From assembly GCA_964291315.2 (NCBI GenBank), contig OZ219753.1, positions 448,001 to 512,000 of the forward strand: 64,000 bases of DNA, in the 5' to 3' direction. Below the pieces are notes generated by a model. That model was not told where the DNA came from, made no database searches, and saw only the letters and a list, made by a program, of their open reading frames with translations. The stretch's first letter is position 1, and each line of letters starts with the position of its first letter. The position numbers and the translations under genes are program-made. Below, in pieces: positions 48,215 through 49,914 of the stretch. This DNA comes from Candidatus Poribacteria bacterium. Its GTDB lineage: Bacteria > Poribacteria > WGA-4E > WGA-3G.

Positions 48215-48285
48215 CCTATCTATTTTCAAAGCCGTGTCGCTTCCCGCCTGTTAGGCGTGAGGCACTCGAGGTTTCAAGCCGAACG

Positions 48286-48402
48286 TCCCGCGTGTTGCGT
48301 GGCGGCTCCTGGAACAATACAGCACAGAACGTGCGGGTCGCCTCCCGCAACTTCAATGCGCCTACGAGCTCGTACGACTTCTACGGTTTTCGTTGTGCGA
48401 GG
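48286..48402 (+). repeat. Repeat in template (TR) position; 5' half template-like, 3' half VR-like
   Basis: About 70 nt after the RT stop with a non-coding 5' flank. AAC AAT ACA GCA CAG AAC is intact at 48313-48330, while 48343-48384 is substituted. Confidence 0.8.
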
Positions 48403-49914
48403 TCTGTATCCCCTTCGGATGCTGGCGATGGTGCTACCCCTACCCCTACTACCCCGCAGCAGGAGCCTCCTCCTCCGCCCGAGGGCATGGTGTTGATCCC
48501 TGCGGGCGAGTTTCAGATGGGCAGCAACGACGCGGAATCTGGTACAGATGAGCAGCCCGTTCATACCGTCTACGTAGATGCGTTTTATATGGACACGCAT
48601 GAAGTGACGAATGCGGACTTCCAGCGTTTTGTGTTAGCGAACCCACAGTGGCAGAAGAGCAGTATTCCGGACAACTTACACGATGGAAGCTACCTAGCTC
48701 TTTGGGATAGTTCTAGCAACTACCCTGCGGGCAAGGCGAACCATCCCGTGGTGTGTGTGAGTTGGTATGCTGCTGTGGCGTATGCGAAGTGGGCAGGCAA
48801 ACGGCTGCCGACGGAAGCGGAATGGGAGAAAGCTGCGCGCGGTGGCAAGTCGGGGCTAGAGTATCCCTGGGGAAACACGATTGACAGCACACAGGCGAAC
48901 TACGGCGAAAATGTCGGTGGGACGACGGCAGTGGGTACATATCTTGTGAATGGATACGGTCTGTATGATATGGTGGGGAATGTCTCGGAGTGGTGTCTGG
49001 ATGAGTATAAAGTTAAGTCATCCCGCGTCGTGCGCGGCGGCTCCTGGAGCAATATAGCGCAGCGGGTCACCGACCGCGGCGGCGGTACGTCTTCGTACGC
49101 GTTCCTCAACGTCGGTTTTCGTTGTGCGAGGTCTGTATCCGCTATAGGGTTAGCTCCTACGGGCATGGTATTAATTCCTGCGGGGGAGTTTGAGATGGGC
49201 AGCAATGACGCGGATGAGCAGCCCATTCATACCGTCTATGTAGATGCCTTTTACATGGACAGACATGAAGTGACGAATTTGGACTTCAAGCGGTTTGTGT
49301 TGGCAAACCCGCAGTGGCAGAAGAGCCGGATTCCGGACAACTTACACAATGGAGACTACCTATATGATTGGGATGATGATAACAACTATCCTGCGGGCAA
49401 GGCGAACCATCCCGTGGTGAATGTGAGTTGGTATGCTGCTGTGGCGTATGCGAAGTGGGTGGGCAAACGCCTTCCCACAGAGGCAGAATGGGAGTATGCC
49501 GCGCGTGGTGGCAAGTCGGGGCTAAAGTATCCCTGGGGAAACACAATTGGCAGCACACAGGCGAACTACGGCCGTAATGTCGGTGGGACGACGGCAGTGG
49601 GTTTGTATCCAGCGAGTGGGTATGGGCTCTATGATATGGCCGGGAATGTCTGGGAGTGGTGTCTGGATGCGTATGACGGGAACTTCTATTTTACGTCCCC
49701 TGCTCGTAATCCGCTATCAGATGTGAATACATTGTCTAATGTAGACCTGATATTAGATAATTATACACAAGTAAAGTCCGACCGCGTCGTGCGTGGCGGC
49801 TCCTGGATCAATACAGCACAGCTCATGCGGGTCGCCTACCGCAGCTCCAATTCGCCGACGTACACGGACTTCCTCAACCGCGGTTTTCGTTGTGCGAGGT
49901 CTGTATCCCCTTGA
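48292..49914 (+). CDS. DGR target ORF 2 (5'-truncated/chimeric): TR/VR segment, Pro/Thr linker and two FGE-sulfatase domains
   Basis: Begins inside the repeat with no signal peptide or clear RBS; two FGE domains each ending RGGSW...GFRC. Confidence 0.75.
   Translation: MLRGGSWNNTAQNVRVASRNFNAPTSSYDFYGFRCARSVSPSDAGDGATPTPTTPQQEPPPPPEGMVLIPAGEFQMGSNDAESGTDEQPVHTVYVDAFYMDTHEVTNADFQRFVLANPQWQKSSIPDNLHDGSYLALWDSSSNYPAGKANHPVVCVSWYAAVAYAKWAGKRLPTEAEWEKAARGGKSGLEYPWGNTIDSTQANYGENVGGTTAVGTYLVNGYGLYDMVGNVSEWCLDEYKVKSSRVVRGGSWSNIAQRVTDRGGGTSSYAFLNVGFRCARSVSAIGLAPTGMVLIPAGEFEMGSNDADEQPIHTVYVDAFYMDRHEVTNLDFKRFVLANPQWQKSRIPDNLHNGDYLYDWDDDNNYPAGKANHPVVNVSWYAAVAYAKWVGKRLPTEAEWEYAARGGKSGLKYPWGNTIGSTQANYGRNVGGTTAVGLYPASGYGLYDMAGNVWEWCLDAYDGNFYFTSPARNPLSDVNTLSNVDLILDNYTQVKSDRVVRGGSWINTAQLMRVAYRSSNSPTYTDFLNRGFRCARSVSP
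49021..49131 (+). repeat. DGR variable repeat VR2 (internal, degenerate)
   Basis: A-position changes plus a 6-nt deletion and several non-A substitutions. Confidence 0.8.
49780..49899 (+). repeat. DGR variable repeat VR3
   Basis: A-position changes; one extra NNC codon in the terminal AAC run; one G/A difference (ATG vs GTG). Confidence 0.9.

What the first reader, a model, noticed from the sequence alone, without database searches (positions are those of the whole stretch)
48215..48430. Template repeat is half-mutagenised and fused in frame to a headless target gene
Seen: the copy in the TR position keeps all 10 consensus adenines at 48313-48330, but 13 of 22 are substituted at 48343-48384 (e.g. 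TCC, GCG, CCT, TTC where VRs retain AAC, ACG, CCA, AAC). It therefore cannot have templated the 3' half of VR1 or VR5. Its 3' flank (TCT GTA TCC CCT TCG GAT GCT GGC GA) matches the inter-domain linker after VR4, and it reads through into two FGE domains with no signal peptide. Inference, three options: (a) TR-VR recombination deleted the TR 3' end and the 5' part of a three-domain gene, freezing the DGR; (b) the TR acquired a homing-competent 3' flank and was retrohomed into itself, since the 3'-polar gradient fits cDNA integration starting at the 3' end; (c) an assembly collapse across the repeat. Options (a) and (b) would be an unusual self-inactivation or template-evolution route.
Basis: partly seen in the sequence, partly recalled or inferred. 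Interest (0 to 1): 0.85.

Follow-up and report, generated by a model that had tools for sequence, protein, structure and literature searches.

The report
Hybrid template/variable repeat in duplicated DGR
One of two near-identical copies of a bacterial hypermutation cassette has had the back half of its template swapped for a target-gene repeat, which disables that copy while an intact twin elsewhere in the genome still holds the true template.

Summary
The repeat behind the reverse transcriptase (48284-48415) keeps 10 of 10 adenines in its 5' half. It has lost 13 of 22 in 48343-48384 and ends in a VR-type flank that runs in frame into two FGE domains.

A second cassette on contig C3 (RT 2 aa different) carries the intact AAC-rich template, a distinct 3' end (GCGAAGAC) and a conserved ~215-nt structured RNA. 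Against that template the window copy differs only at adenines, and only 3' of the 13-nt core 48330-48342.

Assembly collapse is refuted in run X2. A k=31 contig crosses the junction without a difference at single-copy depth (566.7 against 553.5 and 562.1 beside it).

Best reading: DNA recombination between a template and a variable repeat in a redundant cassette. The system is not frozen, because every window VR fits the C3 template.

Partial self-retrohoming is not excluded. A third locus is a deletion scar, and a congener has the mirror-image hybrid.

This is an unusual decay route of a known system, of moderate interest.

The parts
44601..45163 (+). Small secreted protein gene with a T9SS C-terminal sorting domain. 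It marks the left end of the block that is 99-100% identical to contig C3.
   Evidence: Pfam Por_Secre_tail and FlgD_ig. Identity jumps from unalignable to 98-100% at about 44590-44614.
45319..46707 (+). DGR target gene with signal peptide, N-terminal region and one FGE-sulfatase (C-type lectin fold) domain. Its VR lies at 46575-46705.
   Evidence: Pfam FGE-sulfatase E 4e-65. Against the intact C3 template the VR shows 5/10 and 10/23 adenine differences, and 1/48 and 0/36 non-adenine differences.
46812..47159 (+). avd (accessory variability determinant), intact
   Evidence: Pfam bAvd E 1e-21. One amino-acid difference from the C3 copy.
47156..48214 (+). DGR reverse transcriptase, intact ORF
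   Evidence: Pfam RVT_1. Two amino-acid differences from the C3 copy. Poribacteria relatives are 78-83% identical and show the same gene order.
48215..48283 (+). RT-TR spacer. It is shared with the C3 cassette and conserved in relatives.
   Evidence: Four differences from C3, all within 48216-48238. Alignment with relatives.
48284..48342 (+). Template-derived 5' half of the hybrid repeat, including the invariant 13-nt core 48330-48342, which is the crossover zone.
   Evidence: Identical to the C3 template: 0/10 adenine and 0/48 other differences. The X2 contig 48239-48342, at depth 1000 (both loci), ends exactly at 48342.
48343..48384 (+). VR-derived (adenine-mutagenised) 3' half of the hybrid repeat
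   Evidence: 13 of 22 template adenines replaced (9 by T, 3 by G, 1 by C). No non-adenine difference.
48385..48428 (+). VR-type 3' end (GCGAGGTCTGTATCC, not the template's GCGAAGAC) followed by an inter-domain linker.
   Evidence: 39 of 40 columns identical to the flank after the VR at 52484-52612. The exact template-type end CGTTGTGCGAAGAC occurs only once in the genome, at C3:31744.
48193..49914 (+). Headless open frame: hybrid repeat, linker, FGE domain with VR 49019-49139, then FGE domain with VR 49778-49907.
   Evidence: ORF list, Pfam with three FGE stretches, translation without Met or signal peptide. Against the C3 template the two VRs show 17/23 and 12/23 adenine differences in the 3' half, with 1 and 0 non-adenine differences.
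50024..51446 (+). M4 (thermolysin-family) peptidase gene 50024-51109 and emfourin-family gene 51141-51446. They are cargo of the 3.1-kb stretch between the hybrid and the post-TR remnant.
   Evidence: Pfam Peptidase_M4 and M4_C and Emfourin. The peptidase was not found at E<=1e-60 in 60 other genomes of the genus.
51437..51609 (+). Remnant of the 3' third of the post-TR RNA element, with terminator-like hairpin. It is collinear with C3:31632-31460 and continues into the next target gene, as on C3.
   Evidence: Local alignment. The 17-mer CTTGGGCCCTGTGTTCC occurs only at C3:31620 and window 51449. Window 51484-52618 matches C3 31606-30453 at 87.7%.
51769..53466 (+). Two-domain FGE target gene with signal peptide. 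VRs at 52484-52612 and 53326-53465.
   Evidence: Pfam. Against the C3 template the adenine differences are 6/10 + 16/23 and 7/10 + 13/23, with 0 and 3 non-adenine differences in the 3' half.

Best explanation
The repeat at 48284-48415 is a real template/variable-repeat hybrid. Its 5' half, with everything upstream of it (RT, avd, first target gene), comes from a duplicated DGR cassette. Its 3' half, with everything downstream of it (VR-type end, linker, two FGE domains), comes from the first VR of a multi-domain target gene.

The two were joined by DNA recombination inside the 13-nt adenine-free core CGTGCGGGTCGCC, which is shared by the template and all of the VRs closest to it. The join removed three things from this cassette: the A-rich 3' half of the template, the template-specific 3' end, and the adjoining part of the conserved RNA that follows the template in intact cassettes. 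This copy can therefore no longer act as a template, and the fused target gene has lost its start and signal peptide.

The genome keeps one complete cassette on contig C3. Its template explains the VRs of the window and others across the genome, so diversification can continue in trans. The window's intact avd and RT are redundant spares.

Shown: the hybrid structure, the junction in reads, the intact paralog, and the loss of the template end and RNA element.

Inferred: that the join was made by DNA recombination rather than by cDNA, that the lost RNA is needed for priming (by analogy with the Bordetella phage spacer), and that the VRs are served in trans.
For: - Against the C3 template the hybrid has 0/10 adenine and 0/48 other differences in the 5' half. 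In the 3' half it has 13/23 adenine and 0/36 other differences.
- The only intact template in the 4.4-Mb genome is at C3:31875-31735, among 31 BLAST hits. The exact template-type end is unique to it.
- Window 44590-48342 is 99-100% identical to C3 35550-31793, apart from the VR, a mosaic patch and part of the VR1-avd intergenic. Alignability ends at the core.
- Differences between the two cassettes outside the VR and TR are not adenine-biased: 13 in avd+RT and 8 in 44600-46100. This argues against a long mutagenic cDNA.
- Run X2: contig 48313-48411 crosses the junction with 0 differences at depth 566.7. The window-specific contigs beside it have depths 553.5 and 562.1. The shared contig 48239-48342 has depth 1000 and is unbranched, and the C3-type variant has depth 454.2.
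- C3 is not an alternative haplotype of this region: only 8058 of 64000 window bases hit it.
- In 8 of 9 relatives' loci examined the template behind the RT is A-rich in both halves and ends in GCGAAGAC or a close variant of it (L045: GCGCAAGAC); the ninth is G022. A conserved RNA follows the template at these 9 loci and C3, with 52 predicted pairs, 17 of them with compensatory changes. The window lacks that RNA next to the hybrid.
- Other recombination products exist in the lineage. One is a deletion scar that fuses the first 30 nt of avd to the end of the post-TR element, at C3:227340-227500. The other is a mirror-image hybrid template in congener G022.
- Passages read in PMC12875486 say that, in phage BPP-1, the spacer 3' of TR recruits RT-Avd and primes cDNA synthesis at the template's 3' junction.
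- Passages read in PMC10907252 describe duplicated DGR loci with degraded redundant parts and targets served in trans.
Against: - A 13-nt identity is short for RecA-type recombination. Longer identical blocks exist at both ends of the repeat (29 nt at the 5' end, 16 nt at the 3' end), yet the switch lies in the core. A cDNA 5' junction there would fit the same data.
- The topology is unresolved. The post-TR remnant at 51437-51609 suggests a replacement or insertion whose right junction has no clear homology, rather than a simple deletion. That remnant could also be an older, independent scar, since shorter copies of the element's 3' end follow several other target genes.
- No donor or reciprocal product was found in this genome.
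- The junction is shown by k=31 contigs of one run (X2), which may share its origin with the assembly. Its state in the second run (X3) could not be read.
- Activity in trans, and the need for the post-TR RNA, are inferred and not tested.
Confidence: 0.68

Rival explanations
1. Self-retrohoming. Recombination in the 16-nt block GGTTTTCGTTGTGCGA first gave an intact template a VR-type 3' end. That made it a homing recipient. A mutagenised cDNA (from itself or from the C3 cassette) then replaced only its 3' half, with the 5' cDNA junction in the 13-nt core.
For: - The hybrid carries the VR-type end GCGAGGTC.
- All 13 changes are at template adenines, and there are none elsewhere.
- Passages read in PMC3240598 say that the IMH mismatches set the direction of transfer. 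They also say that >=8 bp of identity suffices for 5' cDNA integration, which can occur at internal sites.
- The VR at 49019-49139 keeps a 6-nt deletion in its 5' half while its 3' half shows 17/23 adenine and only 1/36 other differences. This would fit 3'-only homing.
- TR self-mutagenesis is described in an engineered system (passages read in 10.1101/2025.03.24.644984).
Against: - It needs two events where one crossover suffices.
- The nine best VRs with 10 scorable adenines have 47 of 90 5'-half adenines replaced, so full-length homing is the rule here. Under that rate, 0 of 10 has probability about 0.0006 for a full-length event.
- The paralogous VR pair 46575-46705 and C3:33562-33448 has diverged in both halves since the cassettes separated, yet the hybrid's 5' half is untouched.
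- In run X2 the hybrid's 3' half forms a single contig at full single-copy depth, so there is no major variation there. Rare variants would not show in contigs.
Confidence: 0.17
2. Assembly artefact. The assembler joined the template of the cassette to a VR of a separate three-domain gene across the shared repeat.
For: The genome holds two cassettes that are 99-100% identical over 3.7 kb, plus about 29 VR-like repeats. This is a hard region to assemble.
Against: - Junction 31-mers exist in the reads of run X2 at the depth of the unique flanks (566.7 against 553.5 and 562.1).
- The incoming contig 48239-48342 is unbranched at depth 1000, which is about 566.7 + 454.2. That leaves no room for a separate VR with a template-like 5' half.
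- The identity shared across the junction is only 13 nt, below any usual k-mer size.
- The genome is in 4 contigs with no N.
Confidence: 0.03
3. Patchwise gene conversion without rearrangement. The locus has long had a VR at this position (the first VR of a three-domain gene). A conversion tract copied from the C3 cassette overwrote everything from 44590 up to the core, including the gene's head.
For: - The 99-100% block ends on the left at an RBS with no repeat and on the right at the core. Outer flanks are only about 87% identical.
- The mosaic patch 46111-46410, at about 90%, shows that conversion among FGE paralogs occurs.
Against: - It still joins template to VR in the same core, so it is a variant of the main explanation rather than a true alternative.
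- A 3.7-kb tract that replaces non-homologous sequence needs homology on the left, and none was identified.
Confidence: 0.1

Closest known systems
Canonical diversity-generating retroelement (Bordetella phage BPP-1 type: target/VR, avd, TR, RT)
   Same: The window has bAvd, an RVT_1 reverse transcriptase, and FGE/C-type-lectin-fold targets with a C-terminal VR. Differences from a template are adenine-only, and the VR and TR 3' ends are distinct.
   Different: - The gene order is target-avd-RT-TR, with a roughly 215-nt structured RNA after the TR.
- In the window copy the template is half VR, has a VR-type end and lacks that RNA.
- There are many multi-domain and remote targets.
Duplicated and partly degraded DGR loci served in trans (Thiohalocapsa PB-PSB1; PMC10907252, passages read)
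   Same: [quoted passage not shown]
   Different: There the degradation is attributed to transposons and MITE-like repeats. Here one copy was disabled by a template-by-VR join and another by a microhomology deletion from avd to the post-TR element. No transposase was seen at these junctions.
Experimental swap of the template's 3' end for the VR's IMH, which makes the TR a recipient (Doulatov et al. 2004; recalled, not read. It is cited as ref. 1 for directionality in PMC3240598, passages read.)
   Same: The window copy is a natural template-position repeat that carries a VR-type 3' end and adenine-specific changes.
   Different: Only the 3' half is changed. The flank continues into a target gene, so a plain crossover explains it without any homing.

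Membership tests
Diversity-generating retroelement (the locus as a whole) | Reverse transcriptase of the DGR clade next to a TR/VR pair | tested here: met
   RVT_1 hit. Homologous RTs of 78-83% identity lie in the same target-avd-RT-TR order in Poribacteria MAGs. The IGxxSQ-type motif seen in the sequence is recalled as DGR-typical and was not tested.
Diversity-generating retroelement (the locus as a whole) | Accessory protein Avd | tested here: met
   PF22296 bAvd, E 1e-21, 77.9 bits against a cut-off of 40.
Diversity-generating retroelement (the locus as a whole) | Target protein with a VR at the C-terminal end of a C-type-lectin/FGE fold | tested here: met
   FGE-sulfatase domains end at each VR in three genes of the window.
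Functional template repeat (the copy at 48284-48415) | VRs differ from it only at its adenines, over its whole length | tested here: not met
   This holds in 48313-48329. In 48343-48384 the five VRs differ from it at 9-13 non-adenine positions, 3-7 of which are A in the VR.
Functional template repeat (the copy at 48284-48415) | Template-specific 3' end that differs from the VR's IMH | tested here: not met
   The copy carries GCGAGGTCTGTATCC as the VRs do. The template form GCGAAGAC, or a close variant of it, is found at C3 and at all 9 relatives' loci examined.
Functional template repeat (the copy at 48284-48415) | Adjacent structured RNA used for priming (the Sp analogue) | tested here: not met
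   A conserved post-TR element is present at C3 and 9 relatives' loci. It is absent after the hybrid, and only its 3' third lies 3.1 kb away. That it primes cDNA is inferred from BPP-1 (PMC12875486, passages read).
Functional template repeat (the copy at C3:31875-31735) | Adenine-only differences from the VRs | tested here: met
   Ten VRs, five of them in the window, have 0-1 non-adenine differences of 36 in the 3' half and 8-17 of 23 adenines changed. The window VR at 53326-53465 has 3 of 36.
Variable repeat (the copy at 48284-48415 as a homing recipient) | Adenine-specific variation among cells or samples | tested here: inconclusive
   Run X2 shows a single contig at full depth, but contigs drop rare variants. 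Run X3 could not be read at this place.

The most novel reading that the evidence does not exclude
The template-position repeat became a retrohoming recipient once it gained a VR-type 3' end. Its 3' half was then rewritten by mutagenised cDNA that resolved at the 13-nt adenine-free core. This would be a natural case of a DGR mutating its own template. It would show in the wild that the 3' end alone sets the direction of transfer, and that partial, 3'-only homing occurs. The mirror-image hybrid in a congener and the VRs that keep indels in one half would then be footprints of frequent half-repeat exchange. Such exchange would shuffle target domains and kill or move cassettes.
Probability: 0.17. 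Interest if true: 0.65.

Novelty: new variant of a known kind. Interest (0 to 1): 0.42.

Why it matters
DGRs depend on a strict asymmetry: the template must stay constant while its copies mutate. This locus shows one way that asymmetry breaks in nature. The template and a variable repeat are long near-identical direct repeats, and here they have been joined, which disables a cassette and beheads a target gene.

The same genome also holds an intact master cassette and a third locus reduced to a scar. Together these give a three-stage picture of how redundant DGR copies decay while their targets can still be served in trans.

There is a practical point for DGR-finding software. The repeat nearest the RT is not always the working template, and a program that assumes so would call this DGR aberrant or assign the wrong template.

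I found no description of a template/VR hybrid in the library searches made. Supplementary tables of the large surveys were closed and might list such cases.

Tried and rejected
- **Long mutagenic cDNA (retro-duplication of the whole cassette from the template's 3' end to the mRNA 5' end).** Considered because the 99% block starts at an RBS. Rejected because differences outside the VR and TR are not adenine-biased and the template's 5' half is untouched.
- **Haplotig idea (C3 as the same locus in a second strain).** Rejected: only 8058 of 64000 window bases hit C3, and the flanks are about 87% identical.
- **Rfam.** No family matched the post-TR element. There were 2 weak, unrelated hits in 4 loci at E<=1.
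- **Ancestral locus through the M4 peptidase.** Not found at E<=1e-60 in 60 other genomes of the genus, so no outgroup structure was obtained.
- **Exact junction 36-mer in metagenome contigs.** 0 matches.
- **RT relatives in metagenome contigs.** The best was 63% identical, too distant to help.
- **Rough screen for polar hybrid templates in 161 fetched loci.** 111 loci had repeat pairs and 88 had a canonical pair. Two were flagged (L116, L184), and both were rejected by eye. The screen flagged the window's own hybrid in only 1 of its pairs and missed G022, so its sensitivity is low and it gives no frequency.
- **Run X1 (wetland metagenome).** It held only short, weak FGE matches, which is no evidence of anything.
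- **Run X3.** The joint 48312 to 48374 is best explained by a paralogous VR laid in two pieces, and is uninformative about the hybrid.
- **The search of earlier findings.** It was closed, so no earlier notes were used.
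Full report
**What is in the window.**

The region 44.6-53.5 kb is a diversity-generating retroelement (DGR) with several targets. Pfam gives three findings:
- bAvd for 46812-47159.
- RVT_1 for 47156-48214.
- FGE-sulfatase domains in three genes: 45319-46707 (one domain), the open frame 48193-49914 (two full domains and a fragment) and 51769-53466 (two domains).

The 18-mer GGTTTTCGTTGTGCGAGG occurs 5 times in the window, against 0.09 expected. 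Together with a sixth, slightly diverged copy at 53326-53465, these define six copies of a roughly 125-nt repeat.

**Checking the observation.**

In the six-way alignment the copy behind the RT has A at all 10 variable columns of 48313-48329. The VRs differ from it there only at those adenines. In 48343-48384 there are 22 variable columns, and this copy has A at only 9 of them. VR1 and VR5 each have A at 7 places where it has another base.

Its flank 48385-48424 agrees with the linker after the VR at 52484-52612 in 39 of 40 columns. The frame is open from 48193, the first start codon is a GTG inside the repeat, and the N-terminus has no Met and no signal peptide.

**The intact template exists elsewhere in the genome.**

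The window is C4:448001-512000 of a 4.4-Mb genome in four contigs. A search with the RT found a second copy on contig C3. That copy differs by two amino acids in the RT and one in Avd.

Behind that RT lies an AAC-rich repeat. It reads GCC AAC CGC AAC AAC AAT ACG CCA ACG AAC ACG AAC AAC AAC AAC GGT and ends in GCGAAGAC rather than GCGAGGTC. It is the only such copy among 31 BLAST hits in the genome, and the exact template-type end occurs only there.

Against it, the window copy compares as follows:

| Half | Adenine positions changed | Other positions changed |
|---|---|---|
| 5' half | 0 of 10 | 0 of 48 |
| 3' half | 13 of 23 | 0 of 36 |

Fisher p for the adenine contrast is 0.002. The switch is a step at the adenine-free core 48330-48342, not a gradient.

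Ten VRs, five of them in the window, show 0-1 non-adenine differences of 36 in the 3' half against this template. The window VR at 53326-53465 shows 3. The C3 repeat is therefore a working-type template for the window's targets, and the DGR is not frozen.

**What the intact cassettes have and the window copy lacks.**

Relatives are Candidatus Poribacteria MAGs, by the record titles. At 8 of the 9 relatives' loci examined, the repeat behind the RT is A-rich in both halves and ends in GCGAAGAC or a close variant of it (L045 reads GCGCAAGAC). The ninth, G022, is described further down.

A conserved element of about 215 nt follows the template. RNAalifold predicts 52 pairs on 10 sequences (9 relatives plus C3), 17 of them with a compensatory change, and the last helix looks like a terminator. 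It matches no Rfam family.

In phage BPP-1 the spacer 3' of TR recruits RT-Avd and primes cDNA at the template's 3' junction (PMC12875486, passages read). By analogy, this element is probably needed for template function.

In the window the hybrid runs straight into a coding linker. Only the last third of the element is present, 3.1 kb further on at 51437-51609. From there it continues collinearly into the next target gene, as on C3.

**Is it an assembly artefact?**

Two runs of one study hold the stretch. The k=31 contigs of run X2 give the following picture:

| Contig | Depth | Note |
|---|---|---|
| 46836-48138 | 957 | Shared by both cassettes |
| 48109-48268, window-type | 553.5 | Window cassette |
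| 48109-48268, C3-type | 454.2 | Differs at 9 letters |
| 48239-48342 | 1000 | Unbranched; ends exactly at the core |
| 48313-48411 | 566.7 | Crosses the junction with no difference |
| 48386-48502 | 562.1 | Carries on into the linker |

The junction words are thus in the reads at single-copy depth. Inflow (1000) equals hybrid plus C3-type outflow (566.7 + 454.2). That leaves no room for a separate VR with a template-like 5' half.

C3 is not a second haplotype of this region, because only 8058 of 64000 window bases hit it.

Three caveats apply. X2 may share its origin with the assembly. Contigs prove adjacency only within 31 nt at a time. The hybrid's state in run X3 could not be read.

**How it arose.**

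The block 44590-48342 is 99-100% identical to C3 35550-31793, apart from the VR, a roughly 90% mosaic patch at 46111-46410 and part of the VR1-avd intergenic. Outside the block the loci are about 87% alike or unalignable. The right end of the block is the core itself.

Differences inside the block are not adenine-biased. This rules out a long mutagenic cDNA copy of the cassette.

The simplest history is one DNA crossover between the template of a duplicated cassette and the first VR of a multi-domain target gene. Whether the result was a deletion, a replacement of about 160 nt by 3.1 kb, or a conversion tract cannot be settled. The 3.1-kb segment holds VR half, two FGE domains, an M4 peptidase and an emfourin-family gene.

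The post-TR remnant at 51437-51609 favours the replacement reading. However, shorter copies of that element's end follow several other targets, so the remnant could be an older, independent scar.

**The retrohoming rival.**

Because the hybrid has a VR-type end, it could be a homing recipient. In BPP-1, 5' cDNA integration needs only >=8 bp of identity and can use internal sites (PMC3240598, passages read). A cDNA junction in the 13-nt core would therefore give the same picture.

Several points count against this:
- It needs an extra step.
- Full-length homing seems the rule here. 47 of 90 5'-half adenines are changed in nine VRs, so 0 of 10 has probability of about 0.0006 for a full-length event.
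- VR1 and its C3 paralog have diverged in both halves since the cassettes separated.
- X2 shows one dominant sequence for the hybrid.

I put this rival at about one in six.

**Context in the lineage.**

Two further products of the same kind of instability were found.
- At C3:227107-227500 a target VR is followed by the first 30 nt of avd, fused through a GTTCCTCTC microhomology to the end of the post-TR element. This is a scar left by loss of avd, RT and the template.
- In congener G022 the template behind an intact RT has the opposite polarity. Its 5' half is adenine-depleted (12 of 13 adenines replaced relative to G011, by my reading). Its 3' half, template-type end and post-TR element are intact.

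Duplicated DGR loci with degraded redundant parts and trans-served targets are already described for Thiohalocapsa (PMC10907252, passages read). In that case the degradation is attributed to transposons.

**Novelty and score.**

This is a known system with an unusual structural variant. In the library searches made I found TR-VR homologous recombination mentioned only as a background event in engineered assays (10.1101/2025.08.18.670894 and 10.1101/2025.03.24.644984, passages read). I found no natural hybrid template.

The finding is solid and instructive, and useful for DGR annotation. It does not point to a new mechanism unless the self-homing reading proves true. Interest is 0.42.

Noticed in passing
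G000 contig C3:222390-227500 (not in the window); scar at about C3:227340-227500: This is a third paralogous locus with the same left flank, T9SS-tail gene and FGE targets at about 90% identity. It has no RT. After its last VR (C3:227107-227234) the first 30 nt of avd are fused, at a GTTCCTCTC microhomology, to the last ~95 nt of the post-TR element. It is a scar left by deletion of avd, RT and the template.
   Followed up: partly
L036 (G022:C112) 8470-8590: A congener has a mirror-image hybrid template. Its 5' half is adenine-depleted (TCC CCT TCA GTC CGC CTC ... TTT). Its 3' half is AAC-rich, with the template-type end and the post-TR element. Its upstream VR (L036 about 6690-6800) is too diverged to pair cleanly, so that system may be decaying.
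   Followed up: partly
L032:1057-1327(-) = G000 C3:31750-31480, and 9 relatives' loci (alignment A2): A conserved element of about 215 nt lies directly 3' of the template in Poribacteria DGRs. It has 52 predicted pairs, 17 with compensatory changes, and ends in a terminator-like hairpin. It matches no Rfam family. It is a candidate functional analogue of the BPP-1 spacer RNA.
   Followed up: partly
Genome-wide: C4:2728251-2733263, C4:1232006-1234654, C4:774565-777127, C4:332031-333808, C1:562164, C3:225945-227234 and others: About 29 VR-like repeats match the single template, including six at roughly 835-840-nt spacing in one array. Ten have 0-1 non-adenine differences in the 3' half, and the rest look older or decayed. 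This is more candidate targets than the maxima quoted in the passages read of PMC5758913 (eight tandem, seven non-adjacent).
   Followed up: partly
window 49778-49907 and 49019-49139; C3:29449-29330 and C3:30587-30468: Three VRs carry one extra codon relative to the present template, and one VR has a 6-nt deletion in its 5' half. All still show adenine-only differences in the 3' half. They cannot be full-length copies of today's template. Possible causes are a lost template variant or homing of the 3' part only.
   Followed up: no
window 46111-46410: A mosaic patch has about 90% identity between the two cassettes, inside a block that is otherwise 99-100% identical. It suggests gene conversion from another FGE paralog.
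   Followed up: no
window 50024-51446: An M4 (thermolysin-family) peptidase without a signal peptide is followed by an emfourin-family gene. This protease/inhibitor pair sits between DGR target genes. The peptidase was not found in 60 other genomes of the genus at E<=1e-60.
   Followed up: partly
window 44404-44480, 45158-45200, 45248-45290 (and similar at about 53570-53600): REP-like palindromic units (TGTAGCATAACCTGTTAGGTTGTGC) and a second hairpin (TGTAGCACAGACTGACAGTCTATGCTACA) are scattered in the intergenic spaces of the DGR region.
   Followed up: no
window 46836-48268, in runs X2 and X3: The samples differ in how alike the two cassettes are. In X2 both copies match the window at 46836-48138 and split only at 48139-48238. 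In X3 all depth carries the C3-type letters at those nine places, plus further changes at 46986-46991. This suggests ongoing conversion between cassettes or strain differences, and it shows that the assembly is identical to neither run.
   Followed up: no
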